DNA of 24,936 nucleotides from an uncultured Thermoleophilia bacterium (lineage in GTDB: Bacteria > Actinomycetota > Thermoleophilia > Gaiellales > F1-60-MAGs149): assembly GCA_902806305.1 (NCBI GenBank), contig CADCWC010000218.1:1-24936 (forward strand), given 5' to 3'. Below the pieces are notes generated by a model. The model saw only the letters and a list, made by a program, of their open reading frames with translations. It was not told the DNA's origin and ran no database searches. Below are positions 6,585 to 24,695 of the stretch, piece by piece. Numbering within the stretch: the stretch's first letter is position 1; each line of letters begins with the position of its first letter. The translations under genes and the position numbers were made by a program.

Positions 6585-6596
6585 CGAGGGCCACGG

Positions 6597-9215: not shown

Positions 9216-9263
9216 CCGCGTCCTGGCGCCCCTCCGGTTCAGCCGAGCGGCGCCAGGACGCGG
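9216..9263. terminator. 15-bp perfect inverted repeat between convergent genes (likely bidirectional terminator)
   Basis: CCGCGTCCTGGCGCC (9216-9230) / GGCGCCAGGACGCGG (9249-9263), 18-nt loop containing the flavin reductase stop codon. Confidence 0.55.
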
Positions 9264-9841
9264 ACGAGCGGGTCGTTCAGGTCCTCGTCGTCCTCGAGCG
9301 AGAGCGGCCCGCCCTTGACGGCCAGGGCAGGCAGGCGCGGCAGCATCCGCAGCGCGCTCTCGTGGAACAGCAGCGGGGTCTCGTCGGCGCGGCCGCAGCG
9401 CTCGACGAGGCCGAACATCACGTCGTGGTCACCGACCCGGACCACCTCGTGGAGCTTGCAGACGAGGAGGGCGAGCCAGTGGTCGAGGATCGGCACGCCC
9501 TCCTCGTCGAGGTGATGGGAGACCGCGTCGAAGCGAGGCGCGTGGAAGCCGACGAACGCGCGCGCCGAGGAGATCTGGTCGTGAGCCAGCACGTGGATGG
9601 CGAACCGGCCCGAGGTCTTCGCCGCCTCGCAGGTGCGCGCGCCGATCTGCGAGCAGACGAGCACGATCGGCGGGTCGAGCGACACGCTGGTGAACGAGTT
9701 GGCCGTCATACCGCAGAGGGTGCCGTCCTCGGCCGCGGCCGAGACGATCGTCACCCCCGTCGGGTACGAGCTCATCACGGAGCGGAACGTGGCCGGGTCG
9801 AAGGCGTCGCCCAGCGAGGAGAGGTCGGACATGGACGTCAT
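9239..9841 (-). CDS. Flavin reductase family protein (HpaC/DszD-like)
   Basis: FR.VMS.YPTGVTIVS, GMTANSFTSVSLDPP.VLVC, GDHDV.FG.V, PLLF; the start may be at 9832 instead. Confidence 0.92.
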   Translation of the reverse strand: MTSMSDLSSLGDAFDPATFRSVMSSYPTGVTIVSAAAEDGTLCGMTANSFTSVSLDPPIVLVCSQIGARTCEAAKTSGRFAIHVLAHDQISSARAFVGFHAPRFDAVSHHLDEEGVPILDHWLALLVCKLHEVVRVGDHDVMFGLVERCGRADETPLLFHESALRMLPRLPALAVKGGPLSLEDDEDLNDPLVRVLAPLG

Positions 9842-9874
9842 TGTCCCCGGGTCCGGCCGGTTGCAGCAAGGAGA

Positions 9875-9903
9875 CGGGTCGGCGCCTCGCCGGCGCCGAC
9901 CCG
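9875..9903 (-). terminator. Hairpin downstream of the APC permease
   Basis: CGGGTCGGCGCC / GGCGCCGACCCG 12-bp stem, 5-nt loop, followed on the minus strand by TCTCCTT. Confidence 0.55.
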
Positions 9904-9935
9904 CCCGTCACCGCGTCGGGCGTCCGCGGCGTCGA

Positions 9936-11450
9936 TCAGTGGACGCCGGTGCCGGTCAGGACGCGCTCCTCGTCGGGCGTCCGTGGCGCGGGCATTCGCA
10001 GCGTCAGCTTCGACTTGTCCTCGACGATCACCCGGTAGGCGAAGAAGGCGAGCGACATCGCGAGGACGAAGACGCCGACCAGGAGCTCCTTGTACTCGCC
10101 GTAGCCGGTGAGCTTGAAGGAGAGCGACCCGACGACGAGGATGATGACGTCGTAGACGAGCAGGACGGCGGCGATCGGCACCCACGCCGGTCCGACGCGC
10201 AGGGGCCGCGGCCACGCCGGGCGGTCCCGGCGCAGCAGCAGGAAGGCGGAGACGGCCGCCACGTGGGCGAACACGTAGCCGAGGTTCGACATCGTCAGGA
10301 TCTGGATCACGGCCGTGGGGCCGGCGAACAGGATCGTGACCGCGATGTTCATGACGGCGTCCAGGGTCATCGCGTTCCCGGGCACATGCCGTCGGTTGGC
10401 CTTGCCGAGCCAGCGCAGCGTCATGTCCGCCCGCGAGATGCCGTAGAGGGCACGCGACCCGTCCATGGTCGCCGTGTTCATCGACAGCAGGATGCCCGCG
10501 CAGAGCAGGATCACCGCGACCGACGTGAACCCCGTCCCGAGGATCGCCTCGAGGGCGGTCGTGTAGAACGAGTAGGCGTTCTCGACCGTGATGTTCTGGT
10601 CGCCGACGATGCCGACCGCGCCGAGCGGCAGCAGGCCGTAGACGAGGATGCCGAACACCGCGGCGGCCCGCAGCGCCTTCGGCGTGTCGTTCACCGGGTC
10701 CTTGTACTCGGCCGCGAACGTGGCGCAGCACTCGAAGCCGTACGCCGACCAGCACATGATGTAGAGCCAGGCGATCACCAGGCGCAGGCCGTTGTCGCCG
10801 CCGAAGCTGCCCCAGTCGACGTTGTTCGAGAGGTTGTCGGCGCTCCAGTCGCCCGTCAGGTAGGGCAGGAACATCAGGATCGCGAGCGGGATCAGGAGCA
10901 GCGCGCCCGTGATGTACGAGACCCACACCGCCGGGCGGACGCCCATGATGTTCGACAGCCAGAGCGCGATGATCAGGAAGATCGCGACGAAGATCGGGAA
11001 CGTGAAGGTCACGTCGACGATGCCGAGGCCGAGCGTGCGGTTCCAGCCGGACTCCGGGTCCGCGGTCCCCTCGAAGAACTGCGCCTGGATCAGGCCGCCG
11101 ATGATGATGCCGTTGACGGAGAGGACGACCGACCAGCCGAGCCAGTACCCGAAGGCGGCCATCGGGCCGACGAACGACGCGTAGCGCTTCCAGCCCTCGT
11201 GGGCGTAGAAGGCGATGCCGCCCGCGCGGTCCGGGAACATCGTCGACATCTCGGAGTAGATGACGTTGTGCAGGGCGCCGACGCAGACCGCGATCAGCCA
11301 CACGATCACCGCGCCCCAGCCGCCGAGCGACACGACCGAGAACCCGAGACCCGTCAGCAGGAACGCCGGATTCGCCATCGCGACGACGAAGCCGTCGAAC
11401 CACGACATTGCCCGAGCGAGTTCGCCGTCCTCTACCTCTGCAACCGCCAT
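9936..11450 (-). CDS. APC-family amino acid/amine permease
   Basis: About 12 hydrophobic segments; E..T.FPDRAGGIA, GYWLGW, WSAYGFE....FAAEYKDP..DTPKAL, DGSRALYG.S, LRR..P.WPRP; GGAGAAGG RBS; 504 aa. Confidence 0.92.
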   Translation of the reverse strand: MAVAEVEDGELARAMSWFDGFVVAMANPAFLLTGLGFSVVSLGGWGAVIVWLIAVCVGALHNVIYSEMSTMFPDRAGGIAFYAHEGWKRYASFVGPMAAFGYWLGWSVVLSVNGIIIGGLIQAQFFEGTADPESGWNRTLGLGIVDVTFTFPIFVAIFLIIALWLSNIMGVRPAVWVSYITGALLLIPLAILMFLPYLTGDWSADNLSNNVDWGSFGGDNGLRLVIAWLYIMCWSAYGFECCATFAAEYKDPVNDTPKALRAAAVFGILVYGLLPLGAVGIVGDQNITVENAYSFYTTALEAILGTGFTSVAVILLCAGILLSMNTATMDGSRALYGISRADMTLRWLGKANRRHVPGNAMTLDAVMNIAVTILFAGPTAVIQILTMSNLGYVFAHVAAVSAFLLLRRDRPAWPRPLRVGPAWVPIAAVLLVYDVIILVVGSLSFKLTGYGEYKELLVGVFVLAMSLAFFAYRVIVEDKSKLTLRMPAPRTPDEERVLTGTGVH

Positions 11451-11598: not shown

Positions 11599-11964
11599 AT
11601 GCTGCGTCAGGATCCACCGAAGATCACGATCACGTGCGACTGCGGCGAGGTCCACCGCCTTGCCTACGGCGACGAGGTGGCCTGCCGTTGCGGGCGCCGC
11701 TACGACACCTCGGCCATCCCGGCCGAGGACTACGCCGCGATCAGGGCGACGCGCCGGCGCTTCCGGCTGCTGCAGGGGGCGTTCGCCGTCGCCCTCGGCG
11801 GCCTGATGCTGGCCACGCTGCTCCTCCGGCCACGAGCGGCGGTCATCCTCGTGCCGCTGGTGCTGATGGTGTGGTTCGTCTACCTGCGCCCGCTGCTCCG
11901 GCGCTGGTACCGGCGACAGGTCGCCGAGCTCACGCTGCGCTGGACGCTCGAGGCCAAGGCGTAG
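11599..11964 (+). CDS. Hypothetical small membrane protein with N-terminal CxC...CxC motif and two TM helices
   Basis: GGAAGGAG RBS 9 nt before ATG 11599; ITITCDCGEVHRLAYGDEVACRCGRRYD, then two hydrophobic helices flanked by Arg clusters; GC3-rich codons; 121 aa. Confidence 0.72.
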   Translation: MLRQDPPKITITCDCGEVHRLAYGDEVACRCGRRYDTSAIPAEDYAAIRATRRRFRLLQGAFAVALGGLMLATLLLRPRAAVILVPLVLMVWFVYLRPLLRRWYRRQVAELTLRWTLEAKA

Positions 11965-12010
11965 CGGTGGGCGCACGTGTCCGGACGGCGCCGACGCGGG
12001 ACGCGGTCCG

Positions 12011-13273
12011 GTGCTGCTCGCGCTGACGAACGCCCGCGTCTTCACGGCGACGGGCGAGCCCGCGCTCGCGTCGGGCGTCGTCGTGGTGGAGGACGCCCGG
12101 ATCCGCTCCGTCGACCCCTGGCCGACCGAGCTCCCGGAGGGCTGCGTCGCCGTGGACCTCGCGGGCCGGACGCTCCTGCCCGGCTTCGTCGACGCCCACG
12201 TGCACCTCGTCTACCGGGAGGGCCTGGACGACTGGTACACGTTCGAGCTCGCCACGCCGCTCGAGGCCGCCGCCGTCGACGCGACGATCAACGCCGGTCG
12301 GCTGCTCGAGATGGGCATCACGTCGGTGCGTGACGTCGGCACGCGCGGCAACATCGCCGTGGTGCTGCGGGACGCGATCCGGGGCGGCCGGCTGGGTGGG
12401 CCGCGCGTCCGCGCGTCGAAGCAGATCATCTCCGTCTCGGGCGGTCTCACGGATGTCCACCCGAGCCACCTGCCGATCGACGGGCGGCACGCCGCGACGA
12501 CCGGCGAACGGGTGACGGGGCCGTGGGAGGCCCGCGACGCGGTCCGCCGTCAGGTCAAGGACGGCGTCGACTGGATCAAGGTCGAGGCGAGCGGCACGTT
12601 CAACAGCCCGTACTCGCCCGGCGATCGCGAGACGATGTCGGCCGAGGAGCTCCGGGCGATCGTGGACGAGGCCTCCGACAAGGGCCGCCCCGTCGCCTGC
12701 CACGCCGAGTCGCGACGGAGCATCCTGCGGGCCGCCGCCGCTGGCGTGCGGACGATCGAGCACGCCGTCGACCTGGACGACGCGGCCGTCGAGGCCGTCC
12801 TCGAGGCCGGCGCGGCGATCTGTCCGACGATGGGGATCTACCGCAACCTGGCCGTCCGCGGCCGTGAGTTCGGGTTCGCCGACGAGGTGGTGGAGCGCAA
12901 CCTGGCCAATCACCGCCGCCACGTGGAGTCGATCCGCCGGGCCCACCGCGCGGGGCTGACGATCATCGCCGGGAGCGACGCCGGCTCGTCCCGGTTCCCG
13001 CACGACGGCGCGCTGCTGCGGGAGATCTGCCTCTACGTCGAGCTGGTCGGGATGACCGCGGGCGAGGCGCTCGTGACCGCGACCCGCGCGGCCGCGACGG
13101 TGATCGGGCTCGGCGACGAGGTCGGCACGATCGAGGCGGGCAAGCGGGCCGACCTCGTCGTGATCGCCGGCGATCCGCTCGGGCGCATCACGACGCTGAC
13201 CGACCCGGGCGCCGTGGAAGCTGTGCTGCAGGACGGCCGCGTCGTCGCGGGGGCCCTCCCCGGAATGGGCTGA
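12011..13273 (+). CDS. Metal-dependent amidohydrolase (prolidase/imidazolonepropionase-like subgroup)
   Basis: LLPGFVDAHVHL (HxH), G.TSVRDVG, WIKVEASG (putative carbamylated Lys), CHAES, IEHA, AGSDAG, G.IE.GKRADLVV; 420 aa. Confidence 0.92.
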   Translation: MLLALTNARVFTATGEPALASGVVVVEDARIRSVDPWPTELPEGCVAVDLAGRTLLPGFVDAHVHLVYREGLDDWYTFELATPLEAAAVDATINAGRLLEMGITSVRDVGTRGNIAVVLRDAIRGGRLGGPRVRASKQIISVSGGLTDVHPSHLPIDGRHAATTGERVTGPWEARDAVRRQVKDGVDWIKVEASGTFNSPYSPGDRETMSAEELRAIVDEASDKGRPVACHAESRRSILRAAAAGVRTIEHAVDLDDAAVEAVLEAGAAICPTMGIYRNLAVRGREFGFADEVVERNLANHRRHVESIRRAHRAGLTIIAGSDAGSSRFPHDGALLREICLYVELVGMTAGEALVTATRAAATVIGLGDEVGTIEAGKRADLVVIAGDPLGRITTLTDPGAVEAVLQDGRVVAGALPGMG

Positions 13274-13280
13274 CGTCTCC

Positions 13281-13314
13281 GCCGGCCGGGAGCGCGACCG
13301 CGCTCCCGGCCGGC
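13281..13314. terminator. Bidirectional terminator hairpin
   Basis: GCCGGCCGGGAGCGC / GCGCTCCCGGCCGGC 15-bp perfect stem, 4-nt GACC loop, between convergent stops at 13273 and 13326. Confidence 0.75.
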
Positions 13315-13325
13315 GCGATCACCCG

Positions 13326-14723
13326 TCAGGCGGGCGAGCCGCCGTTCGATGAGCCGTCGGCCTCGCCGAGCAGGCGCTCGGCCAGCTTGCGCTTCTCCTC
13401 GGGACCGAGCTTCTTGATCTCGTTCTCCATCGCGCGCGTGTTGACGACCTGGTTCCAGTAGTCGAGCGAGTCGTAGCCGAGCAGCGCCGTCTTGCCCACG
13501 AACTGGCGCAGCACCTCGTTCGTCGGGCCCATGACCCAGCCCGCCTTGCCGTCGCGCAGGTAGCGCTCGATGTCGAGCGGCTTCTTCTTGTAGCCCGTGC
13601 CGCCCGTGCAGTGCAGCATCTTGTCGACGACCCGGGCGACGTTCTTCGCGGCCCGGAACTTGATCTGCCACAGGAACGGCAGGTAGTCCGCGCGGGCGAG
13701 CTCGCCGACCGGCGGATTGCGTCGCGCGTCGTCCGTGACCTTGTCGAGCGCCTGGGCGACCGAGAACGTGAACGCACGGGCCGAGTTCGTCTCGATGATC
13801 GCCTCGCCGACGGCGTCCTGGATCGTCGGGTAGTCGCAGACCCGCAGGCCGACGTCCTTGTGCGTCTTGCGGGTCGTGTGGGAGATCGCGATGTCGATCG
13901 CGCCGAGCGCGATGCCGCTCCAGACGCCGGAGGACCCGATCAGGAAGTTCGGATCGACGGACTCGTCGTTCGAGGCGGCGCCGTCACCGATCGGACCGAC
14001 GAGCTGCTGCTCGGGCACGAAGCCCCAGTCGACGAGCAGGGAGCCGGACTGGTTGCCCCGCAGGCCGAGGGCGTCCCACTCCTGCGGCTCGGCCTGGATC
14101 TGCGAGGCGTCGATCAGGAAGACGGACAGGTTCGAGTAGTCGCCGCCGTAGTCGGGCGACGTCGTCTGGCAGACGTAGAAGTCGGCGAAGCCGCCCGAGG
14201 TCGTCCACGACGCCTTCTTCAGCACCTCGAAGCCGCCCTCGACCCTACGGGCGCCCGACGCCATCGGGTACCAGAAGTGGGAGCCGGTCTCGGGGTCCGA
14301 GTAGGAGAGCGTGCCGATCAGCCCGTCCTTGACCTTCTTCAGGTAGTTCTCGACGAAGTAGTCCGTCTGGCGCAGGCGGAGCGTCTCGACGGCGCCCGTG
14401 TGCATCACGTAGCACATGGCACAGGAGGCGTCGCCGTAGCGCGCGATCGTCTCCGTGACCCACGCGTAGAAGACGTGGTTCTGGCCCAGCCCGCCCCACT
14501 CCTTGGGCAGCATGACGCCGAGGAAGCCGTCCGGCCCGAGCGCCTCGAGGCTCTCGCGCGGGAACGTCAGCGTGGCGTCGTTGTGACGCGCCCGCGGCCG
14601 GATCTCCGTCTCGCAGATCTCCCGAAGGCGCGCCAGGAGTCCGATCTGCTCCTCGTTCAGGAACCAGACCGGGTCGAACATCGGGTCGAGTCCGTTCTTG
14701 GTCTCCTCGGCCACCGCGGCCAT
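13326..14723 (-). CDS. Acyl-CoA dehydrogenase-fold flavoprotein (possibly a flavin-dependent monooxygenase)
   Basis: D....FP.E.L..LG..G.LG..LP.EWGGLG, SDPETGSH, K.SW.TSGG.AD, W..LGLRG..SG, GGTGY....IERYLRD; GAAGGAGG RBS; 465 aa. Confidence 0.88.
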   Translation of the reverse strand: MAAVAEETKNGLDPMFDPVWFLNEEQIGLLARLREICETEIRPRARHNDATLTFPRESLEALGPDGFLGVMLPKEWGGLGQNHVFYAWVTETIARYGDASCAMCYVMHTGAVETLRLRQTDYFVENYLKKVKDGLIGTLSYSDPETGSHFWYPMASGARRVEGGFEVLKKASWTTSGGFADFYVCQTTSPDYGGDYSNLSVFLIDASQIQAEPQEWDALGLRGNQSGSLLVDWGFVPEQQLVGPIGDGAASNDESVDPNFLIGSSGVWSGIALGAIDIAISHTTRKTHKDVGLRVCDYPTIQDAVGEAIIETNSARAFTFSVAQALDKVTDDARRNPPVGELARADYLPFLWQIKFRAAKNVARVVDKMLHCTGGTGYKKKPLDIERYLRDGKAGWVMGPTNEVLRQFVGKTALLGYDSLDYWNQVVNTRAMENEIKKLGPEEKRKLAERLLGEADGSSNGGSPA

Positions 14724-16419: not shown

Positions 16420-16425
16420 TCGGCG

Positions 16426-16486
16426 GCCGGTGCGAGGGACGCACGCGTCCCGAGGGCCGTATGTGCATTTCGTCCCTCGCACCGGC
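16426..16486. repeat. 61-bp palindromic element, 16-bp perfect arms
   Basis: GCCGGTGCGAGGGACG (16426-16441) / CGTCCCTCGCACCGGC (16471-16486), starting 6 nt after the gmaS stop. Confidence 0.8.
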
Positions 16487-16617
16487 GGCCGGATGTGGCC
16501 GAATCGCTCCTAGACGGGGCCTCTAGGCCTCGATACGCTCCAGCGCCACGGGCCGGTATGGAGCTTCCCTCCACCGTGCGCCCGTCGGCCGTCACTCCGA
16601 AGCGAGGCAGACCAGAG

Positions 16618-17541: not shown

Positions 17542-18317
17542 GCGAGCGCGCGGTCAGCTACGACGCACGCGGCCTGGCGGAGCCGAACGCGGTCGCGCCC
17601 GAGACGGCGGTCGTCGACGGCCAGACGGCCGAGCTCGACGCGGCCGACCTCTCGATCCGACAGATCAACCTGGAGCTCCGGCGCCTCGTCTACGGGCTCG
17701 GCGTGACCGACGTCGTGGTCCGCAACCCCGGCTCGAAGCACTCGCTCGGCGTGGGCATCCTGACGCGCTGCCGGATCCGCTTCGAGGGCAGCCTCGGCTA
17801 CTTCGCCTGCGGGCTGCTCGACGGGCCCGAGGTGCACATCACGGGGCGCGTGGGCTGGGCGGCGTGCGAGAACATGATGTCCGGCGTCGTGGTCATCGAG
17901 GGGAACGCCGGCTCCCAGACGGGGGCGGCGCTGCGCGGCGGCGACCTCGTGGTCAAGGGCCGCGCCGGCGCGCGCTCGGGCATCGACCAGAAGGGCGGCA
18001 CCATCATCACGATGGGCAGCGTCGGGGCGATGACGGGCTTCATGATGCAGCGCGGCCGCCAGGTCATCTGCGGCGACGCGGGCCCGGGGCTCGGCGACTC
18101 GATGTACGACGGGACGATCTACGTGGCCGGCAAGGTCAAGGCCCTCGGGATCGACTGCGTGCCCGGTGAGTGGACGGACGCCGACACCGAGTTCATCGAG
18201 CGCAAGTTCCGCATCTACGACCTCGGCTCGCCGCCGTCGTTCGACAAGTTCGTCTGCGGCAAGAAGCTCTACAACTACGACAGCCTCGAGCCGGCCGAGC
18301 GCAAGCTCGTCCTCTAG
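17529..18317 (+). CDS. mgsB: GXGXG/FmdC-like subunit (N-methylglutamate synthase subunit B, GlxC)
   Basis: GSLGYFACG, G.VGW...ENMMSG, GNAGSQTGA.LRGG, G.R.GI..KGG, MTGFMMQRG, GDSMYDG.IYV; overlaps the mgsA end by 13 nt; 262 aa. Confidence 0.87.
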   Translation: MAAVGERAVSYDARGLAEPNAVAPETAVVDGQTAELDAADLSIRQINLELRRLVYGLGVTDVVVRNPGSKHSLGVGILTRCRIRFEGSLGYFACGLLDGPEVHITGRVGWAACENMMSGVVVIEGNAGSQTGAALRGGDLVVKGRAGARSGIDQKGGTIITMGSVGAMTGFMMQRGRQVICGDAGPGLGDSMYDGTIYVAGKVKALGIDCVPGEWTDADTEFIERKFRIYDLGSPPSFDKFVCGKKLYNYDSLEPAERKLVL

Positions 18318-18331: not shown

Positions 18332-19798
18332 ATGGCGGCCACCGACGACATCCGGCAGCACCCGGACCGGGCCAACATCGACCAGCAGCGCAGCGTGCTC
18401 GGGCACTCGCAGATCTTCACGCCGGAGGTCATCGACGACATCCACGTGAAGTCGGAGCTCGGCCGCTACCGGATGCGCGGCTTCTCGATGTTCAAGAAGA
18501 TCCCGCACTGGGACGAGCTGATGTTCATGCCCGGCACGCTCACGCGCTTCGTGATCGAGGGCTACCGCGAGAAGTGCGAGACGAAGACCGTGCTCGGCGC
18601 GCGCTTCGCGAAGAACCCGCTGACGCTCGACATCCCGATCTACATCACGGGCATGAGCTTCGGCGCGCTCTCGATCGAGGCGAAGATGGCGCTCGCCAAG
18701 GGCGCCTCGATGGCCGGGACGGCGACCTGCTCGGGCGAGGGCGGCATGATCCCGCCCGAGCGCGAGCTCTCGACCAAGTGGTACTACCAGGTCATCCAGA
18801 GCCGGTACGGGTTCAACCCGCACCACCTGATGCTGGCCGACGCGGCCGAGTTCTTCATCGGCCAGGGCTGCAAGGTCGGGCTCGGCGGGCACCTGATGGG
18901 CCAGAAGGTCACGGAGCAGGTGGCCGAGATGCGCTCGCTGCCCGTCGGCATCGACCAGCGCTCGCCCGCCCGGCACCCGGACTGGCTCGGCCCGGACGAC
19001 CTGTCGCTGAAGATCCAGGAGATCCGCGAGGCGACCGACTACCGGATCCCGATCCAGCTGAAGCTCGGCGCCGCGCGCGTCTACGACGACGTGCGGATGG
19101 CGGCCAAGTGCGGCCCCGACATCATCTACCTGGACGGCGCCGAGGGCTCGACGGGCGCCGGGCCGCACACGGCGACCGAGGAGACCGGCATCCCGCTGAT
19201 GGCGGCCATCCCCGAGGCGCGGCGCGCCCTCGAGGACGTCGGCCTGGCCGACGAGATCGACCTCGTGGTGGCGGGAGGCATCCGGAACGGCGGCGACATC
19301 GCCAAGTGCATCGCGCTCGGGGCCAAGGCCGTGGCCATCGGCCACTCGGCGCTGATCGCGCTGAACTGCAACAAGGAGATCCCGGGCGTCACCGACTACG
19401 AGGGGACGATCGGGGTCAAGGCCGGGCGCTGCTACCACTGCCACACGGGCCGCTGCCCGGTCGGCGTGACGACGCAGGATCCGGAGCTGCGGGCCCGCCT
19501 GGAGGTCGACGCCGCCGCCGAGCGGGTCTACAACTTCCTGCACGCGATGACGCTCGAGCTCCAGATGCTGGCCCGGGCCTGCGGCAAGACGGACGTGCAC
19601 AGCCTCGAGCCCGAGGACCTCTGCGCACTGACCGTCGAGGCCTCGGCGATGGCCAAGGTGCCGCTCGCGGGCACGACCTACATCCCGGGCGTGACCGAGC
19701 AGCGCACGCTCGACGAGATCAAGGGCCTCGTGCAGGGCCTCGTGCCCCAGCCGCACGGCGAGTCCGACCGCGAGTTCGTGCGACCGGCGGCCGACTGA
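18332..19798 (+). CDS. mgsC: FMN-binding glutamate synthase family subunit (N-methylglutamate synthase subunit C, GlxD)
   Basis: ITGMSFGALS, SGEGGM, SRYGF, IGQGCKVGLGGHL.G.KV, SPARHPD, DG.EG.TGA, GGIRNG.D.AK..ALGA, CYHCHTGRCP.G..TQD ([3Fe-4S] motif); 488 aa. Confidence 0.9.
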   Translation: MAATDDIRQHPDRANIDQQRSVLGHSQIFTPEVIDDIHVKSELGRYRMRGFSMFKKIPHWDELMFMPGTLTRFVIEGYREKCETKTVLGARFAKNPLTLDIPIYITGMSFGALSIEAKMALAKGASMAGTATCSGEGGMIPPERELSTKWYYQVIQSRYGFNPHHLMLADAAEFFIGQGCKVGLGGHLMGQKVTEQVAEMRSLPVGIDQRSPARHPDWLGPDDLSLKIQEIREATDYRIPIQLKLGAARVYDDVRMAAKCGPDIIYLDGAEGSTGAGPHTATEETGIPLMAAIPEARRALEDVGLADEIDLVVAGGIRNGGDIAKCIALGAKAVAIGHSALIALNCNKEIPGVTDYEGTIGVKAGRCYHCHTGRCPVGVTTQDPELRARLEVDAAAERVYNFLHAMTLELQMLARACGKTDVHSLEPEDLCALTVEASAMAKVPLAGTTYIPGVTEQRTLDEIKGLVQGLVPQPHGESDREFVRPAAD

Positions 19799-20361
19799 TG
19801 GCCCCCGACGAGCACATCCTGAACGACCCGGACCAGATGCACCACGACCCGCACGCGGGCGGTCACGCCACGGCCGAGGGCGGCCCGGGCGGCGACGAGC
19901 AGCACGCGCAGAGCGTGACGGGGCACCACCCCGAGCGCGCGCAGTGGACGATGGGCACCTCGATCGACTCGGAGGCGCTCTGGGGCCGACGGTTCCCGTA
20001 CCAGGAGGACCTGTCCCTGGTCGAGGACGTCGACCTGGTGGCGGCGACGCCCGGGGCCGACATCAACTGGCTCGAGGACGTCGACCTCCTCCAGGAGGAG
20101 GGCATCCCGGCCGTCTTCGACCGCTACTCCAACTGCTTCCTCAAGATCCACTTCCCGATCCCGGCGGGGCGCGAGAACGAGATCGCCCGCAAGGTCCTGA
20201 TCAAGCACCTGCAGTCGGGCAACTCCTACGGGATCCGGATGAAGGAGAAGCACGCCAAGTTCGCGCAGCCGGAGCTCGGGCCGTGGGTGGCGAACTCGCG
20301 GACGGTGGGGGAGAACTACACCCCGCCGGTGCTCGAGGGCTGGGAGCCGCCCGTCCACTGA
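19798..20361 (+). CDS. Hypothetical protein with His-rich N-terminus, translationally coupled to mgsC
   Basis: TGATG overlap at 19796-19800; GC3-rich codons; followed by a terminator hairpin; 187 aa; no family recognised. Confidence 0.8.
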   Translation: MAPDEHILNDPDQMHHDPHAGGHATAEGGPGGDEQHAQSVTGHHPERAQWTMGTSIDSEALWGRRFPYQEDLSLVEDVDLVAATPGADINWLEDVDLLQEEGIPAVFDRYSNCFLKIHFPIPAGRENEIARKVLIKHLQSGNSYGIRMKEKHAKFAQPELGPWVANSRTVGENYTPPVLEGWEPPVH

Positions 20362-20370
20362 CCGCCGTGT

Positions 20371-20399
20371 GACCGGCGCCCGTGGGGCGGGCGCCGGTC
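20371..20399 (+). terminator. Terminator hairpin ending the mgsABC-orf187 unit
   Basis: GACCGGCGCCCG / CGGGCGCCGGTC 12-bp stem, 5-nt loop, 9 nt after the stop. Confidence 0.7.
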
Positions 20400-20637
20400 G
20401 CGCGTCACCACCTCGGCGGTACGGTGCCGGCATGGGCGCGGCGAAGCCGGCGGTGGCGTTGCGGGGCGGCCGCGTCGTGCGGTACGCGCGGCACGACGAT
20501 CTCCGCACGGCCCTGGACGCGGCACGACTCGCGTGGCCGACGAGGTCCGGGTCGAAGGACGGTCCGGCGCCGCCGGCCTGCACGCCTGACGGTCGTCCGG
20601 ATCGTCGACGTCGTCTCCGACCTGGGGCGGTAGCGGC

Positions 20638-21414
20638 TCAGGCCCCGAGCGCCCGCGAGACCTCGCGGCCGGCCTGGACCAGCGCGGGCCGGGCGACGTC
20701 CATCGCGTCCGGCGTGAAGCGGGCGGCGGGCCCCTGCAGCCCGAGGACGGCCGCCAGGTCGCCGCGCGCGTCGAGGACGGGGACGGCCACCGCGTTGAGG
20801 TCCGGCTCGCGCTCGCCGACGGCGCGGGCCACGCCCTCGAGCCGGATCCGTTCGACCTCCCGCCGCAGCGCCGCCGGGTCGGTGATCGTCCGGGACGTGT
20901 AGCCCGTCAACGGGCCGTCCGGGTCCGCCACGACCCCGTCACGACCGAACGCGAGCATGACCTTGCCGACGGCCGTGGCGTGCGCCACGCTCGGTCGGCC
21001 GACGCGGGCCACGGAGATCACCGTCCCGGCCCGGCCGGGCACGAAGTCGGCGGTCACGGCCTCGTCGCCCGCGGGCAGGGACAGCGTGGCCGTCTCGCCG
21101 TGGCGGTCGACGAGGTCCTCGAGGAACGGCCGCGCCAGCGCGCGGACGTCCAGACGGGCCAGGACGGCGTTCGCGAGCTGCAGCACGCGCGCGCCGAGAC
21201 GGTAGCGGCCGCTGTCCGGCAGGTGCTCCACGTAGCCCGCCGCGGTCAGCGTGGCCAGGACGCGCGACACGGTGGCGGCGTTGATCGCGGTGCGGCGGCT
21301 GATCTCCGAGGTGCCGAGCTCCCCGCCGGGAGCGGCGCCGAGGGTGTCCAGGACCTGCGTCGCCCGTGCGACCGCCGCCAGTGTCCGAACGGCCGGGACT
21401 CCCGTCCGGCCCAC
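20638..21414 (-). CDS. IclR-family transcriptional regulator
   Basis: LAAVARATQVLD.L...G.SEISRRT.IN.ATVSRVL.TL...GYV, AHATAVGKVMLA, AVAVPV; 258 aa. Confidence 0.93.
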   Translation of the reverse strand: MGRTGVPAVRTLAAVARATQVLDTLGAAPGGELGTSEISRRTAINAATVSRVLATLTAAGYVEHLPDSGRYRLGARVLQLANAVLARLDVRALARPFLEDLVDRHGETATLSLPAGDEAVTADFVPGRAGTVISVARVGRPSVAHATAVGKVMLAFGRDGVVADPDGPLTGYTSRTITDPAALRREVERIRLEGVARAVGEREPDLNAVAVPVLDARGDLAAVLGLQGPAARFTPDAMDVARPALVQAGREVSRALGA

Positions 21415-21508: not shown

Positions 21509-23308
21509 ATGAGCGCCGCCCCCCGCCCGTTCGACGTCCCGGTCGCCGTCCCCGCGCCGGACGTCGAGCTGCTCCATGACGTGGTGCGCGCGGTCTCGTC
21601 GAGCCTCGAGCTGCCGGTCGTGCTGAGCTCCGTCGTCGAGCTCGTCACGCGCGCCGTCGGGTGCCACGCCTGCTACGTCTTCCTCGCCGACCAGAGCGGC
21701 CGGATGGTGCTCGAGGCGTGCAGCTCCGAGCGCTACGCCGACTCCGTCGGCAAGGTGGTGCTCGAGCCGGGCGAGGGCCTCGCCGGGTGGGTGGCGCGCC
21801 GCCGGATGCCCGTCTTCATCGCCGAGGATGCGCTCGCCGACCCGCGCGTCCGGATCCTCGACCAGTTCGAGGAGCACAAGTACCAGTCGCTCGTCTCGCT
21901 GCCGCTGATCGGCAAGGGCGGCGAGGTCTTCGGCGTCATCGCCGCCCACGGCGCCGCGCCGCGCGAGTTCACCGCCGCGGAGCAGCGCTTCCTGCTCTCG
22001 AGCGCCGCCCTGGCCGCCGGGGCGATCGAGAACGCCCGGCTGTACGGCGAGACCTCGCGGCGCGTGGACGTCCTGGAGCGCCTCGTGCAGCTGTCGCGCA
22101 GCATCGCCGAGGGCGAGACGATCGACGTGCTGCTCCGCGACGTCTGCTCGCGCCTCCTGCCTCTTCTCGGCGCGGCGTCGTGTCGGCTCTTCCTGCGCGA
22201 CGACGACCACGCCCGGCTGCGGCTGCGCGCCTACGCGCCGCCGGGCAGCTGCGACGGCGGTGTGACGTCGATCGGCATCGAGGACGTCGGAGCGGCGGTC
22301 GGGCCCGACCGGCACGGCGTCGAACGCGTCGCGCGCCTGCTCGGCGACGAGACGGCCCAGGCGGCCGAGTGGCTCTTCCAGCCGCTGCTCGTCTCGGGTG
22401 AACTGCTCGGCCTGCTCGCCGTCCGCGGTCGTGGCGGCCGGCGCTTCGGGTCCGAGGACCGCGACCTCGCGGCGACCGCGATGGCCCAGGCCGCCGTCGC
22501 GGTCGAGAAGATCCGGCTGCTCGAACGGCTCGAGGAGCGGAACCTGATCAAGGACTTCTTCGACGACCTCGCCGCCGGTGACAGCGCGGCGGCCCGCGGC
22601 CGGGAACGGCGACTGAGCTGCGATCTGGCCACGCCGCGGGTCGTCCTGATCGCGACCCGCTACGGACCACACGCGGCCGGCGCGGACGAGAGCGGCTGGG
22701 CCGCCGCCCTCGAAGCCCGCCTCGCCGTGCGCTTCCCGGCCGCGCTCTTCGACCGCAGCGAGCACGGCCTCCGCGCGCTGCTCCCGGTCACGCCCGCGTC
22801 CGAGGCGGAGGCGCGGGCCTGGGTGCGGGAGGCGCACGCCGCCGTGTCGTCCGAGGACCTGCCGGTCGCGGTCGGCCTGTCCGAGGTCTGTACCGGCCGA
22901 CCGGGCTACGTGGCGGGCTTCGAGGAGGCGAACCTCGCCCTCTCGGCGGCCGCCGTCCTGCACGGCAGGCCGTCCGTCATGGGGTTCGACGAGCTCGGCC
23001 CGTACAAGTACCTGCTGCGGCTGCCGCGCGGCACGCGCGATCGCCACTGCGACCGGCTGCGTCCGCTGCTCGAGTACGACCGGGACCACGGGTCGCAGCT
23101 CTTCCTGACCCTCGAGGAGTACTTCCGGCGCCGCGGCCGCGTGGCCGCCACGGCGGCGAGCCTCTACATCCACCCGAACACGCTCCGCCAACGCCTGGGC
23201 CGGATCGCCGCGCTCACCGGTCTCGACGTCGAGCGCGAGGACCCGCTCACGCTCGAGCTCGCCATGAAGCTCGTGCGCCTCGAGGACTCCGTCACCCGCG
23301 GCACCTGA
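21509..23308 (+). CDS. GAF-GAF-PucR/CdaR-type transcriptional regulator
   Basis: Two GAF-like segments (GEGLAGWVA...PVFI..DA..DPR; SL..LPL..GV) plus C-terminal L..TLE.Y....G.V..TA..LYIHPNTLRQRL.RI..LTG HTH; start trimmed to MSAAPRPF; 599 aa. Confidence 0.9.
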   Translation: MSAAPRPFDVPVAVPAPDVELLHDVVRAVSSSLELPVVLSSVVELVTRAVGCHACYVFLADQSGRMVLEACSSERYADSVGKVVLEPGEGLAGWVARRRMPVFIAEDALADPRVRILDQFEEHKYQSLVSLPLIGKGGEVFGVIAAHGAAPREFTAAEQRFLLSSAALAAGAIENARLYGETSRRVDVLERLVQLSRSIAEGETIDVLLRDVCSRLLPLLGAASCRLFLRDDDHARLRLRAYAPPGSCDGGVTSIGIEDVGAAVGPDRHGVERVARLLGDETAQAAEWLFQPLLVSGELLGLLAVRGRGGRRFGSEDRDLAATAMAQAAVAVEKIRLLERLEERNLIKDFFDDLAAGDSAAARGRERRLSCDLATPRVVLIATRYGPHAAGADESGWAAALEARLAVRFPAALFDRSEHGLRALLPVTPASEAEARAWVREAHAAVSSEDLPVAVGLSEVCTGRPGYVAGFEEANLALSAAAVLHGRPSVMGFDELGPYKYLLRLPRGTRDRHCDRLRPLLEYDRDHGSQLFLTLEEYFRRRGRVAATAASLYIHPNTLRQRLGRIAALTGLDVEREDPLTLELAMKLVRLEDSVTRGT

Positions 23309-23337
23309 GCGCTCCTCCGCCCGCATCGGCGCCGCGG

Positions 23338-24648
23338 TCAGCTCCAGGGGTAGGGGCTGTGCGAGACCGGGTGCAGGTCGCCGGTCGCGAAGCGCTCGTA
23401 GCGGAACGGGTAGAGCAGCGACGAGTGCTCGCCGAGCAGCACGCGGGCGACCTCCCGTCCGACGCCGATCATCTTGTAGCCGTGGTTCGAGTCGGCGATC
23501 ACGTAGACGTTCGGGCGCATCTCGTCGAAGACCGGGAAGTTGTCGACCGTGAACGCCCCGACACCGCCCGACCGGACGGTCTTGTAGGCCGAGCGCATCC
23601 CCGAGAAGCGCTCCATGCAGTGCGAGAGCGCCGCGACCCACATGTCGGCGAAGCCCGGCTCCACGGAGGAGCTCGGGTACGGGTCGACCTGGAAGTCGTG
23701 TCCCTTCGGGAGCGGTGACGCGCCGCCCTGCACGCCGTGGCGGTCCCGCTTGAAGTAGATGCCCCACAGCTCGTCCGTGATCAGCCGGCCGTCGTCGTCG
23801 TGGAGCGGCGCATCGGAGTCGACGTGGATCACCGGCGGGATCCCGCCCTCGGCGGTGGCGAACAGCGACGGGTCCATCGTGATCTCGCCCTCCTGGAGGT
23901 ACCAGAAGGTCCACATCTCGCGGTCGCGGTGCACCTCGCCCTCGGGTGTGCGCACGTCGAGGCGCTGCGGCAGCCCGAGCATCCCCCAGATCTCCTTGAC
24001 CCACGGTCCGGCGCCCACGACCACCTGCTCGACCTGGATCGAGCCGCCGTCGGTCTCGACCGTCGTGACGGCACCGGAGTTGTCGAGCTCGAACCCGGTC
24101 ACCCGGACGCCCTCGAGGATCTGGACGCCCTCGCCGCGGGCCTTCCCGGCCAGCCCCTGGATGGCGTCGACGTTGTAGGCGAACCCGCCCTTGTGCTCGT
24201 GCAGGCAGACCGTCACGCCGCGGCCGCGCCAGTCCGGGTAGAGGCCCCGCATGTAGTCGCGGACCTCGCGCTCGCCCACGATCAGGTCCGAGGGGTAGCC
24301 GATGCGCTGCTGCCGCTCGTGCACCTCGATCAGGTCCTGCTCCTGGACCTGCGGGCCGAGCGCCATGTAGCCCACGCTGTTGTAGGCGTACGCCGCCGGG
24401 TCCTCCTCCCAGACCTCGACGTTGGCGGCCATCAGCTCGGCCATCGCGGGCTGGTAGTAGTTGTTGCGGACGACGCCGCACGCGATCCCCGAGGCCCCCG
24501 CGGCCACGCCGGTCTTGTCCACGACCAGGATGTCCTCGCCGCCGCCCTGGCCGCGGGCCTTCAGCTCCTTGGCCAGGTGGTAGGCCGTGGAGAGGCCGTG
24601 GACGCCCGCGCCGATGACGAGGTAGCGCGTGGACTTGGGGACCTGCAT
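23338..24648 (-). CDS. FAD-dependent oxidoreductase, DAO/sarcosine oxidase beta (SoxB/MgdA)-like
   Basis: YLVIGAGVHGLSTAYHLA, VVDK....GASG.ACGVVR.NY, VTG, VVVGAGPW, T.DNFPVFD, GYK...VG; GGAGG RBS 8 nt before ATG 24648; 436 aa. Confidence 0.88.
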   Translation of the reverse strand: MQVPKSTRYLVIGAGVHGLSTAYHLAKELKARGQGGGEDILVVDKTGVAAGASGIACGVVRNNYYQPAMAELMAANVEVWEEDPAAYAYNSVGYMALGPQVQEQDLIEVHERQQRIGYPSDLIVGEREVRDYMRGLYPDWRGRGVTVCLHEHKGGFAYNVDAIQGLAGKARGEGVQILEGVRVTGFELDNSGAVTTVETDGGSIQVEQVVVGAGPWVKEIWGMLGLPQRLDVRTPEGEVHRDREMWTFWYLQEGEITMDPSLFATAEGGIPPVIHVDSDAPLHDDDGRLITDELWGIYFKRDRHGVQGGASPLPKGHDFQVDPYPSSSVEPGFADMWVAALSHCMERFSGMRSAYKTVRSGGVGAFTVDNFPVFDEMRPNVYVIADSNHGYKMIGVGREVARVLLGEHSSLLYPFRYERFATGDLHPVSHSPYPWS

Positions 24649-24667
24649 GGTGTCGACCTCCGGCCGT

Positions 24668-24695
24668 ATTGCCATGACGGCAATCGTGTTGCCAT
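24668..24695. promoter_or_regulatory. Candidate operator: ATTGCC-N5-GGCAAT inverted repeat plus second TTGCCAT half-site
   Basis: Perfect inverted repeat at 24668-24684; TTGCCAT direct repeat at 24669 and 24689 (20-bp period); AT-enriched, just upstream of the oxidoreductase RBS. Confidence 0.55.

What the first reader, a model, noticed from the sequence alone, without database searches (positions are those of the whole stretch)
9239..24695. Non-canonical N-methylglutamate (methylated-amine) catabolic island in a high-GC, probably non-proteobacterial genome
Seen: gmaS-like GS, then mgsA-mgsB-mgsC, flanked by a permease, amidohydrolase, ACAD-fold flavoprotein, flavin reductase, FAD oxidoreductase and two regulators. 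Established: GmaS + MgsABC + four-subunit MgdABCD form the N-methylglutamate route for methylamine, characterised mainly in Proteobacteria; glnT-glxBCD clusters are annotated in some Actinomycetota, so the core alone is not new. Inference: the downstream step (no mgdBCD) and the upstream amine-releasing step (no tmm, tdm, dmmABCD or mau in the window) are supplied by different enzymes here, making this a rewired pathway for an unknown N-methylated substrate.
Basis: partly seen in the sequence, partly recalled or inferred. Interest (0 to 1): 0.8.

Follow-up and report, generated by a model that had tools for sequence, protein, structure and literature searches.

The report
Actinobacterial methylated-amine island, demethylase-less variant
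A soil-crust actinobacterium carries a widely conserved gene island for breaking down methylated amines; its core is an unstudied sister copy of the methylamine-fixing enzymes with an extra small protein, and two uncharacterised flavoenzymes sit where the textbook demethylating enzymes would be expected.

Summary
The genes are all there as described. The window is a whole contig of a 71%-complete, 74% GC Gaiellales (Actinomycetota) genome from biocrust.

The core is GS-like, GATase-II, GXGXG, Glu_synthase and orf187. It is not the canonical gmaS-mgsABC but a sister set:
- The ligase has GmaS-type active-site residues but fails the NCBIfam cut-off.
- The five genes stay together in about 75 of 80 related loci.
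- 8 of 12 carrier genomes also have a canonical GmaS.

Linkage is conserved for the DAO-type oxidoreductase, the ACAD-fold protein, the flavin reductase, the APC permease and IclR. It is not conserved for the amidohydrolase.

In a sample of 400 Actinomycetota genomes, the ACAD gene and a bona fide TMAO demethylase (Tdm) occur in exactly the same 9 genomes, always adjacent. A TMADH/ETF set replaces the ACAD in situ in 10 loci. This window belongs to a distinct ACAD clade whose islands lack Tdm.

The claim that Mgd is replaced does not hold. SoxD-A-G-B operons flank the island in relatives, and a SoxB orthologue lies elsewhere in this genome.

My best reading is a methylated-amine island in which ACAD plus reductase is an oxygen-dependent N-demethylase. 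Enzyme assignments remain inferred. This scan has met the same island type about a dozen times on other DNA.

The parts
9239..9841 (-). Flavin reductase (Flavin_Reduct), probable reductase partner of the ACAD-fold protein; apparently co-transcribed with the permease
   Evidence: PF01613 at 119 bits. Best NCBIfam matches are StyB/HsaB-type reductases, all below cut-off. Homologues occur in 22 of 80 loci and in 14 of 15 full-length loci that hold the ACAD gene. A hairpin at 9216-9263 follows its stop.
9936..11450 (-). APC-superfamily permease, a distant relative of the Methylocella TMAO permease
   Evidence: AA_permease_2 at 152 bits. NF053774 gives 210 bits against a 690-bit cut-off. The same sub-family scores 176-215 bits in islands with and without Tdm. 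Present in 41 of 80 loci and 9 of 9 ACAD-anchored loci.
11599..11964 (+). Small protein with a CxC...CxC zinc-ribbon-like motif and a membrane helix; a recurrent companion of the permease or orf187
   Evidence: Translation. No Pfam match. Homologues in 34 of 80 loci, usually just after orf187 or next to the permease.
12011..13273 (+). Amidohydro_1 metallohydrolase, a lineage-specific passenger and not a conserved island member
   Evidence: PF01979 at 153 bits. Best NCBIfam match is Xaa-Pro dipeptidase, 260 bits against a 500-bit cut-off. No homologue in 80 loci. Two paralogues elsewhere in the genome. A perfect 17-nt hairpin at 13280-13315 separates it from the convergent ACAD gene.
13326..14723 (-). 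ACAD-fold flavoprotein without the catalytic Glu; candidate oxygenase component of a two-component N-demethylase (clade B, the Tdm-less type)
   Evidence: ACAD N, M and C domains. The block reads VMGPT where MCAD has IYEGT, and G398-P399-T400 are invariant in 40 homologues. The AlphaFold model has pLDDT 83, and all top 50 Foldseek matches are acyl-CoA dehydrogenases at 17-25% identity. It co-occurs with Tdm in exactly the same 9 of 400 genomes.
14944..16419 (+). GS-like ligase of the 'sister' type (GS*), with GmaS-type active-site signatures
   Evidence: Gln-synt_C at 294 bits. TIGR03105 gives 331.6 bits against a 469.6-bit cut-off. It has Trp at the flap-Glu position (GFWAP), DHED where GS has HHEV, ELN, and no FDGSS loop. 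It shares these with a canonical GmaS and not with this genome's own GlnA.
16421..16491 (+). Strong hairpin (21-nt arms, 95% complementary) between the ligase and the first synthase subunit; possible attenuator or processing site
   Evidence: Its function was not tested.
16618..17541 (+). MgsA-like class-II glutamine amidotransferase subunit
   Evidence: GATase_6/7. The N-terminus is Met-Cys-Gly. It is 34% identical to the canonical MgsA of L106 and 60-80% identical to sister-set orthologues.
17529..18317 (+). MgsB-like GXGXG subunit; overlaps the preceding gene by 13 nt
   Evidence: PF01493. Translation. It is 37% identical to canonical MgsB.
18332..19798 (+). MgsC-like Glu_synthase/FMN subunit, extremely conserved
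   Evidence: PF01645 at 305 bits. It is 85-92% identical across Thermoleophilia and Actinomycetes, and at least 579 genome loci encode a relative. Mean column identity is 87%. It is 52% identical to the canonical MgsC of L106. The closest solved structures are GltS large-chain FMN domains.
19798..20361 (+). orf187: conserved small protein of unknown fold, translationally coupled to MgsC*. The core is about 130 aa. The His-rich N-terminal tail is lineage-specific.
   Evidence: Directly after MgsC* in 73-74 of 80 loci. More than 7,600 90%-identity clusters, all unnamed and without Pfam domains. Only 176 representatives at the 50% level. The model core has pLDDT above 90. No PDB fold match: best E-value 1.6, TM at most 0.22.
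20366..20404 (+). GC-rich hairpin right after orf187; likely end of the GS*-Mgs*ABC-orf187 transcription unit
   Evidence: 17-nt arms, 88% complementary, 5-nt loop.
20638..21414 (-). IclR-family regulator, the usual neighbour of the DAO gene
   Evidence: HTH_IclR plus IclR_C. It occurs together with the DAO gene in 21 of 45 full-length loci. The same pair is seen in L086, L106 and L110.
21509..23308 (+). GAF-GAF-PucR regulator, characteristic of the Tdm-less (clade B) islands
   Evidence: GAF_2, GGDEF_2 and HTH_30. A PucR gene sits next to the ACAD gene in L106, L110, L111 and the P0012 contig. A paralogue sits beside SoxB on C51.
23338..24675 (-). DAO-family FAD oxidoreductase (DAO*), a distant relative of SoxB and monomeric sarcosine oxidase, tied to the sister set
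   Evidence: PF01266 at 117 bits. The soxB model gives only 72 bits, over the N-terminal half. PDB matches cover the FAD domain only. Orthologues occur in 21 of 400 genomes, including all 12 that hold orf187; one of the 21 is the unpublished G120. In G236 and G262 the operon is MgsC*-orf187-DAO*-DAO paralogue.

Best explanation
The stretch is a Tdm-less variant of a conserved actinobacterial island for catabolism of methylated amines (the TMA/DMA/MMA series).

Shown:
- gene content
- conserved linkage
- GmaS-type active-site signatures in the ligase
- loss of the ACAD catalytic base
- nested co-occurrence of the accessory genes

Inferred mechanism:
1. The APC permease, with its small membrane partner, imports the amine.
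2. The ACAD-fold protein, fed reduced flavin by the flavin reductase, acts as an O2-dependent N-demethylase. It would convert TMA to DMA or DMA to MMA and release formaldehyde. That is the job done by the TMADH/ETF set that replaces it at the same position in other islands.
3. The sister ligase GS* joins the resulting amine to the gamma-carboxyl of glutamate.
4. The sister synthase Mgs*ABC, with the extra protein orf187, converts this to an N-methylated glutamate.
5. The DAO-type flavoprotein and a SoxD-A-G-B (Mgd-like) dehydrogenase encoded elsewhere remove the methyl groups as formaldehyde or methylene-THF.
6. IclR and the GAF-PucR protein regulate the units.

The amidohydrolase is a passenger.
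For: Core and island:
- The five core genes are kept together in about 75 of 80 loci from Thermoleophilia and Actinomycetes.
- Recurrent neighbours are Tdm, TMADH+ETF, FTHFS, SoxB/SoxA, the permease, DAO*, and ACAD plus reductase.
- The Tdm next to the ACAD gene in Carbonactinospora passes the NCBIfam equivalog cut-off, 1231 against 1100 bits.

Sample of 400 Actinomycetota genomes:
- ACAD is found in 9, and Tdm in exactly the same 9.
- orf187 is found in those 9 plus 3 more.
- DAO* is found in those 12 plus 9 more.
- ACAD lies immediately upstream of Tdm in all 9.

ACAD as a demethylase:
- ACAD and TMADH/ETF never occur together: 0 loci with both, 20 with ACAD only, 10 with TMADH only. Both occupy the same slot between the permease and Tdm.
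- The window's ACAD falls in a well-supported clade (99/99) with L106, L110, L111 and a Chloroflexota locus. None of them has Tdm. The Chloroflexota locus has a stand-alone GcvT-type gene beside it.
- A 5.2-Mb relative with the window-like layout has no DUF1989 domain at all.
- The catalytic Glu is absent and the replacing block is invariant.
- The five Tdm-carrying genomes tested gave only weak, partial FMO matches or none, so no Tmm-like gene was found.

Ligase:
- GS* shares the flap Trp, DHED and ELN with canonical GmaS, as defined for RhGmaS in PMC7948447.

Expression and transcription units:
- Biocrust metatranscriptome assemblies hold 37-47% of the words of the ACAD-to-orf187 stretch.
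- Hairpins delimit the transcription units.
Against: - No biochemical datum exists for any of these proteins.
- By sequence and by fold, the ACAD protein is nearest to genuine acyl-CoA dehydrogenases, not to known ACAD-fold oxygenases.
- The strict ACAD-Tdm adjacency in clade A fits a TMAO-forming enzyme equally well.
- 8 of 12 carrier genomes also have a canonical GmaS. The sister set may therefore handle an amine other than monomethylamine.
- The role of DAO* is not pinned down.
- The MAG is 71% complete, so Tdm, SoxA and canonical GmaS could lie in unassembled DNA.
- Carrier genomes are related, so the co-occurrence counts overstate independence.
- I could not test for DmmABC because no reference sequences were available.
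Confidence: 0.55

Rival explanations
1. The ACAD-fold protein with its reductase is a trimethylamine N-oxygenase that makes TMAO, a non-homologous substitute for the flavin monooxygenase Tmm. It would feed Tdm as tmm-tdm does in Proteobacteria.
For: - ACAD lies directly upstream of Tdm in 9 of 9 sampled genomes and in most of 20 loci.
- The five Tdm-carrying genomes tested gave only weak, partial FMO matches or none.
- ACAD-fold amine N-oxygenases are known (own knowledge: VlmH, KijD3/DnmZ). DnmZ and KijD3 appear as weak PDB matches.
- Earlier notes of this scan favoured this reading.
Against: - The window's clade of the family sits in islands without Tdm: the window, L106, L110, L111 and the P0012 contig. 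One such genome has no DUF1989 domain at all. A TMAO product would have no consumer there.
- The ACAD set is displaced in situ by TMADH/ETF, which demethylates and does not N-oxygenate.
Confidence: 0.2
2. The sister set (GS*, Mgs*ABC, orf187) together with DAO* handles dimethylamine and not monomethylamine. It would form gamma-glutamyl-dimethylamide, then N,N-dimethylglutamate, which DAO* would demethylate stepwise, with the Mgd-like enzyme finishing the job. The ACAD enzyme would then act one step earlier, on TMA.
For: - The sister set coexists with a canonical GmaS in 8 of 12 carrier genomes, sometimes within 20 kb.
- Four Tdm-carrying genomes that are 94-99% complete have only the sister ligase.
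- DAO* follows orf187 in one operon even where ACAD and Tdm are absent.
- Every Tdm-carrying genome sampled has the sister set.
- Earlier notes of this scan gave this lead.
Against: - The amine-pocket signatures of GS* match those of canonical GmaS.
- In Pseudonocardia and Streptomyces loci the sister set is the only set seen within 10 kb of SoxB-D-A and of a TMAO-permease equivalog, as expected for a plain methylamine module.
- The chemistry is hypothetical.
Confidence: 0.3
3. One reading: the lone DAO-type flavoprotein replaces the four-subunit N-methylglutamate dehydrogenase as a single-subunit enzyme.
For: - Within 10 kb of MgsC*, DAO* and SoxA are never seen together: 0 with both, 31 with DAO* only, 6 with SoxA only, out of 45 full-length loci.
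- DAO* is co-operonic with orf187 in some genomes.
- No orthologous SoxA was found in this MAG.
Against: - A full-length SoxA-type gene lies within about 20 kb of the island in 5 of 5 further carriers, and in L099, L102, L110 and G223.
- A SoxB orthologue (61% identity) lies on C51 of this genome.
- The MAG is incomplete.
Confidence: 0.15
4. The neighbours are unrelated operons placed side by side by chance. The ACAD protein is an ordinary dehydrogenase and the GS/GltS-like genes serve nitrogen assimilation.
For: - All closest solved structures of the ACAD protein are dehydrogenases.
- The amidohydrolase is indeed unrelated to the island.
- All NCBIfam matches are below cut-off.
Against: - The genome-level and locus-level co-occurrence.
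- The missing catalytic Glu.
- GmaS-type and not GS-type active-site residues in the ligase.
Confidence: 0.05

Closest known systems
N-methylglutamate pathway module GmaS-MgsABC-MgdABCD (Methyloversatilis universalis, Methylocella silvestris, Methylobacterium; gene clusters noted in methylamine-using Mycobacterium, PMC5023230)
   Same: - The same order of a GS-like ligase followed by GATase-II, GXGXG and Glu_synthase subunits.
- GmaS-type residues: flap Trp, the Asp of DHED, and no Asp50' loop.
- In Actinomycetes the sister set sits beside SoxB-D-A and FTHFS.
   Different: - The ligase fails the TIGR03105 cut-off (332 against 470 bits), whereas canonical copies in relatives score about 600.
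- The subunits are only 33-52% identical to a canonical set in the same genome (L106).
- A fifth conserved protein, orf187, is present.
- A DAO-type flavoprotein travels with it.
- The sister set coexists with canonical sets in 8 of 12 carriers.
Aerobic trimethylamine pathway Tmm-Tdm-DmmDABC of Methylocella, Ruegeria and SAR11 (PMC5520151)
   Same: Relatives of this island carry a bona fide Tdm, a related APC permease, and folate-linked C1 genes next to the methylamine module.
   Different: - The five Tdm-carrying genomes tested gave only weak, partial FMO matches or none, so no Tmm-like gene was found.
- This window and its clade lack Tdm.
- The oxygenase slots are filled by an ACAD-fold protein plus flavin reductase (or by TMADH/ETF), by DAO* and sometimes by a PhyH dioxygenase.
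- DmmABC could not be searched for.
Group D two-component flavin-dependent monooxygenases with the ACAD fold (DszC, HsaA, C2-HpaH, isobutylamine N-hydroxylase VlmH, nitrososynthases DnmZ/KijD3)
   Same: - ACAD fold.
- No catalytic glutamate.
- A Flavin_Reduct gene in the same island.
- No CoA-metabolism genes nearby.
   Different: - Sequence and fold searches rank true acyl-CoA dehydrogenases first. DnmZ scores 47 bits against 97 bits for the best ACAD.
- The family has about 50 extra C-terminal residues.
- Neither the oxygenase activity nor the substrate has been tested.
Trimethylamine/dimethylamine dehydrogenase with ETF
   Same: It occupies the same position in the island, between the permease and Tdm, and is mutually exclusive with the ACAD set. 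This suggests the same step.
   Different: The fold (Oxidored_FMN + Pyr_redox_2) and the electron acceptor are unrelated. It is not present in this window.
Sarcosine oxidase beta subunit / monomeric sarcosine oxidase / dimethylglycine oxidase (DAO family)
   Same: DAO* shares the FAD-binding half with these N-demethylating amine oxidases.
   Different: Only the N-terminal approximately 220 residues align (46-72 bits). No partner subunits are adjacent. The substrate is unknown.

Membership tests
GmaS (gamma-glutamylmethylamide synthetase; NCBIfam TIGR03105) | Score at or above the curated equivalog cut-off (469.6 bits) | tested here: not met
   331.6 bits. The Pseudonocardia sister copy scores 322 bits, and the canonical copy in L106 scores 596 bits.
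GmaS | The flap Glu of GS is replaced (Trp300 in RhGmaS), the catalytic Asp177/Glu186/Asn188 are present, and the Asp50' ammonium loop is missing (PMC7948447) | tested here: met
   GFWAP, DHED...ELN and no FDGSS. This is the same as the canonical GmaS of L106. The genome's own GlnA on C242 has GYEAP, HHEV and FDGSS. The mapping is by alignment and pattern, not by structure.
GmaS | ATP-dependent ligation of methylamine to glutamate | not testable with these tools
   This needs an enzyme assay with MMA, DMA and ammonia.
N-methylglutamate synthase MgsABC | Three co-transcribed subunits: class-II GATase with N-terminal Cys, GXGXG, and Glu_synthase/FMN | tested here: met
   The genes overlap by 13 nt or are 14 nt apart.
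N-methylglutamate synthase MgsABC | Orthology to the characterised (canonical) set | tested here: not met
   34%, 37% and 52% identity to the canonical MgsA, MgsB and MgsC that coexist with a sister set in L106 and L111. There is also an extra subunit-like gene, orf187.
N-methylglutamate dehydrogenase MgdABCD (SoxB/D/A/G-like) | The four subunit genes are present in the island or the genome | tested here: inconclusive
   - None is in the window.
- A SoxB orthologue lies on C51, cut by the contig end.
- The SoxD-SoxA pair on C222 is only 35% identical to the island-linked SoxA and sits in a betaine/sarcosine-like context.
- No SoxG match was found.
- The genome is 71% complete.
TMAO demethylase Tdm (NF053776) | A DUF1989 + GcvT fusion above the 1100-bit cut-off | tested here: not met
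   No match in G000. The only DUF1989 is a stand-alone 201-aa protein in an unrelated context. Relatives score 1125-1231 bits.
Group D two-component flavin monooxygenase | ACAD fold without the catalytic base, plus a dedicated flavin reductase | tested here: met
   The reductase is linked in 14 of 15 full-length loci that hold the ACAD gene.
Group D two-component flavin monooxygenase | Closer to known oxygenase members than to dehydrogenases; O2-dependent hydroxylation | tested here: not met
   The top PDB sequence and Foldseek matches are all dehydrogenases. The activity is not testable here.
TMAO permease (NF053774) | Score at or above 690 bits | tested here: not met
   210 bits. The second permease of Pseudonocardia scores 778 bits.

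The most novel reading that the evidence does not exclude
The island encodes a route for tertiary and secondary methylamines that needs neither Tmm nor DmmABC. It would have two parts:
- a new ACAD-derived, flavin-reductase-dependent N-demethylase;
- a glutamate-conjugation route for dimethylamine, run by the sister ligase/synthase with its fifth subunit orf187 and the DAO-type flavoprotein.

This would fill the known 'dimethylamine gap' in bacteria that have Tdm but no Dmm.
Probability: 0.3. Interest if true: 0.8.

Novelty: new variant of a known kind. Interest (0 to 1): 0.6.

Why it matters
Methylated amines are significant carbon and nitrogen sources and are precursors of climate-active gases. 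The dimethylamine step is a recognised bottleneck: many Tdm-carrying bacteria lack the only known enzyme for it (PMC5520151).

This island is frequent in soil and biocrust Actinomycetota. At least 579 genome loci encode the sister MgsC, and it holds four conserved proteins that have never been assayed: the ACAD-fold protein, DAO*, orf187 and the sister ligase/synthase.

This window adds a natural experiment. Its islands have all of these genes but no Tdm, and that argues the ACAD enzyme is a demethylase and not a TMAO-forming oxygenase.

If this is confirmed, gene markers used to count methylamine degraders (gmaS, tmm, dmm) would miss a large soil guild.

Tried and rejected
- Complex prediction of MgsC* with orf187 residues 50-187 gave no verdict (score 0.00). 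This is evidence neither for nor against binding.
- The 617-aa 'MgsC-orf187 fusion' P0249 is a frameshifted read-through, not a real fusion. Residues 353-480 are out-of-frame sequence.
- Foldseek against the PDB found no fold match for orf187. The protein atlas gave no usable hit for orf187 and only generic ACAD names for the ACAD protein.
Co-transcription and induction therefore could not be read. Only the word shares are available.
- Two NCBIfam accessions that I guessed might be Tmm or Dmm models turned out to be unrelated families. This told me nothing.
- DmmABC could not be searched for because no reference sequence or family accession was at hand.
- The PF00743 search gives only weak partial matches of generic flavoproteins, or none. 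I read this as no Tmm-like gene found, not as proof of absence.
- The own-genome DUF1989 hit on C340 is a stand-alone protein among a cytosine/purine-family permease, two short-chain dehydrogenases, a polysaccharide deacetylase and an arginase-family gene. It is not a split Tdm.
- Literature searches found no paper on an ACAD-type enzyme in TMA/DMA metabolism, nor on the fifth gene. The library is incomplete.

Full report
**What is there**

The window is the whole 24,936-bp contig C218 of a MAG. The MAG has 2.78 Mb in 516 contigs, is 70.7% complete and has 74% GC. Runs that hold the sequence are biocrust metagenomes and metatranscriptomes.

A genome of 'the same order' (G249) carries a contig of the same length as a Gaiellales MAG record, with an ACAD sequence identical to it. 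The organism is therefore a member of Gaiellales, class Thermoleophilia, Actinomycetota.

They add a small zinc-ribbon/membrane protein at 11599-11964.

Hairpins delimit the transcription units:
- reductase and permease, read leftwards
- the small protein and the amidohydrolase
- ACAD alone
- ligase, then a strong hairpin at 16421-16491, then the three synthase subunits and orf187, ending at a hairpin at 20366-20404
- IclR
- PucR
- DAO

**The core is a sister of the N-methylglutamate module, not the canonical one**

The ligase scores 331.6 bits on TIGR03105 against a cut-off of 469.6. A canonical GmaS in a relative (L106) scores 596 bits, and the Pseudonocardia sister copy scores 322.

The ligase nevertheless has the GmaS hallmarks defined on the Rhodovulum structure (PMC7948447):
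- Trp instead of the flap Glu
- Asp in a DHED block where GS has HHEV
- the ELN block
- no Asp50' loop

The canonical GmaS of L106 shares these residues. The genome's own GlnA on C242 has the GS residues instead.

The three synthase subunits have the expected domains and an N-terminal Cys. They are only 34%, 37% and 52% identical to a canonical MgsABC that coexists with a sister set in L106 and L111.

The sister MgsC is extraordinarily conserved. It is 85-92% identical between classes, with 87% mean column identity, and at least 579 genome loci encode a relative.

orf187 follows it in 73-74 of 80 loci. Other facts about orf187:
- It has more than 7,600 near-identical clusters and no detectable distant relatives.
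- It has no Pfam family and no PDB fold match.
- Its His-rich tail is not conserved.

Of the 12 sampled genomes that hold orf187, 8 also have a canonical GmaS above the cut-off. The other 4 are 94-99% complete and do not. The assembled part of this MAG has none.

**The accessory genes are conserved partners, except the amidohydrolase**

I anchored 80 loci on MgsC*. The window's genes recur in this many of them:

| Gene | Loci of 80 |
|---|---|
| DAO | 45 |
| Permease | 41 |
| Small zinc-ribbon protein | 34 |
| IclR | 32 |
| Flavin reductase | 22 |
| ACAD | 20 |
| PucR | 4 |
| Amidohydrolase | 0 |

Clustering all neighbours and scanning representatives showed what else recurs:
- a DUF1989+GcvT fusion (Tdm)
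- TMADH with ETF and an Fe-S/CCG protein
- FTHFS
- SoxB and SoxA
- a PhyH dioxygenase
- a C26 gamma-glutamyl hydrolase
- formate-dehydrogenase-like genes

The typical Solirubrobacterales order is SoxB, FTHFS, GntR, IclR, DAO*, then the five core genes, the small protein, Usp, the permease, a Usp-like gene, the reductase, Tdm and ACAD. Pseudonocardia and Streptomyces instead have SoxA-SoxD-SoxB and an XRE-cupin regulator upstream of the core. Downstream they have a permease that passes the TMAO-permease cut-off.

**Genome-level co-occurrence**

In an even sample of 400 Actinomycetota genomes:
- ACAD orthologues occur in 9.
- Tdm above the NCBIfam cut-off occurs in exactly the same 9.
- orf187 occurs in those 9 plus 3 more.
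- DAO* orthologues occur in those 12 plus 9 more. One of the 21, G120, is an unpublished genome. The count is 20 without it.

In all 9 genomes the ACAD gene lies directly upstream of Tdm. The permease lies within 10 kb in all 9 and the sister core within 10 kb in most.

The 9 genomes fall in five families, so they are not independent. The nesting is still clean.

Carbonactinospora shows DAO-IclR-reductase-ACAD-Tdm with FolD, a cyclohydrolase and FTHFS nearby. Its Tdm scores 1231 bits against a cut-off of 1100.

**What the ACAD protein probably does**

- It lacks the MCAD-type catalytic Glu. The block reads VMGPT, and Gly-Pro-Thr are invariant in 40 homologues.
- It travels with a Flavin_Reduct gene.
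- No CoA-related genes sit nearby.
- By sequence and by predicted fold it is nearest to true acyl-CoA dehydrogenases, not to known ACAD-fold oxygenases. The oxygenase reading therefore rests on context.

Two observations made here bear on which reaction it catalyses.

First, a tree of the family places the window's protein in a well-supported clade (99/99) with L106, L110, L111 and a Chloroflexota locus.
- None of these islands has Tdm. The same holds for the contig of P0012.
- A 5.2-Mb relative with the same layout has no DUF1989 domain anywhere.
- These islands carry a GAF-PucR regulator next to ACAD, as the window carries one in the island.
- The Chloroflexota locus has a stand-alone GcvT-type gene beside the ACAD gene. 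This recalls DmmD (PMC5520151).

Second, ACAD and the TMADH/ETF set are mutually exclusive in the 80 loci: 0 with both, 20 with ACAD only, 10 with TMADH only. Both occupy the same slot between the permease and Tdm.

TMADH-family enzymes demethylate TMA or DMA. Both observations therefore favour an oxidative N-demethylase over a TMAO-forming N-oxygenase, at least for the window's clade.

The rival stays alive for the Tdm-linked clade. The five Tdm-carrying genomes tested gave only weak, partial FMO matches or none, so no Tmm-like gene was found there.

**What the DAO protein does not do**

Within 10 kb of MgsC*, DAO* and SoxA are indeed never seen together. A slightly wider view removes the argument:
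- A full-length SoxA-type gene lies within about 20 kb of the island in 5 of 5 further carriers.
- L099, L102 and L110 hold SoxD-A-(G)-B beside the island.
- G223, a genome of the window's own order, has SoxD-SoxA-SoxB-FTHFS just past the island.

In this MAG a SoxB orthologue lies at the end of the 2.9-kb contig C51, next to a PucR paralogue. It is 61% identical to the island-linked ones and scores 370 bits on the soxB model over its partial length.

The SoxD-SoxA pair on C222 is a more distant paralogue, at 35% identity. It sits with a GcvT and another DAO gene.

DAO* is tied to the sister core. In two genomes without ACAD or Tdm it is co-operonic with orf187. Its substrate is open. Candidates are an N-methylated glutamate or dimethylamine.

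- The labels 'non-canonical' and 'non-proteobacterial' hold.
- The predicted conserved linkage of orf187, the ACAD gene and the lone FAD oxidoreductase holds.
- The inference that Mgd is missing and replaced is not supported.
- The substrate is not mysterious in kind. The island belongs to TMAO/TMA/DMA/MMA catabolism.
- The amidohydrolase is a passenger.

**Known and new**

NMG-type clusters in Actinobacteria have been noted from genomes (PMC5023230). I found no paper on the sister nature of the set, on orf187, on the ACAD-Tdm pair or on DAO*.

This scan has reported the same island type on about a dozen other stretches of DNA, with differing enzyme assignments. Those notes gave me the lead to test whether canonical and sister sets coexist.

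What this window adds is the Tdm-less clade and the in-situ displacement by TMADH.

**Limits**

- Everything functional is inferred.
- The MAG is incomplete.
- The carrier genomes are kin.
- DmmABC was not searched for.
- The complex prediction gave no verdict.

Noticed in passing
window 7149-8717 (+): Two consecutive in-frame ORFs (7149-8336 and 8361-8717) both match the animal haem peroxidase family. This looks like one peroxidase/cyclooxygenase-like gene interrupted by a stop.
   Followed up: no
window 16421-16491: A 21-nt-arm hairpin (95% complementary, 29-nt loop) lies exactly between the ligase stop and the first synthase gene, in a 198-bp gap. It could set the ligase-to-synthase expression ratio.
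   Followed up: no
L106 and L111 (ENA contigs of 720 kb and 430 kb): One 20-kb stretch holds both a canonical GmaS-MgsABC-SoxD-SoxA set and the sister MgsC*-orf143 set, with PucR, ACAD, the permease, the reductase, IclR and DAO between them.
   Followed up: partly
L005, L020, L057, L077, L080 and five more loci: A TMADH-like gene with ETF alpha and beta and an Fe-S/CCG protein takes the place of ACAD plus reductase next to Tdm. The two sets never co-occur in the 80 loci.
   Followed up: partly
L063, L068, L099, L101-L103 (after Tdm): A PhyH-family Fe/2-oxoglutarate dioxygenase follows Tdm in 7 loci. It is a third uncharacterised oxidative enzyme of the island. This MAG has two homologues elsewhere, on C77 and C253.
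   Followed up: no
G000 contigs C222 and C271: C222 holds SoxD-SoxA with a GcvT and a 490-aa DAO gene. C271 holds a GMC oxidoreductase and an aldehyde dehydrogenase divergent from FTHFS. These are probably choline/betaine/sarcosine catabolism, separate from the island.
   Followed up: partly
window 18332-19798 and alignment A2: The sister MgsC has 87% mean column identity across two actinobacterial classes, far above its neighbours (ligase 50-68%). It includes an invariant Cys-rich block (CYHCHTGRCP).
   Followed up: no
window 5107-7016 (+): Three co-directional ORFs with good coding statistics lie divergent from a second IclR gene. A minus-strand ORF that overlaps them has no Pfam or NCBIfam match. 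The plus-strand ORFs were not scanned.
   Followed up: no
P0249 (617 aa): This looks like a fusion of MgsC* and orf187 in the protein collection, but it is a frameshifted gene call. Only residues 1-352 and the last 130 residues are in frame.
   Followed up: yes
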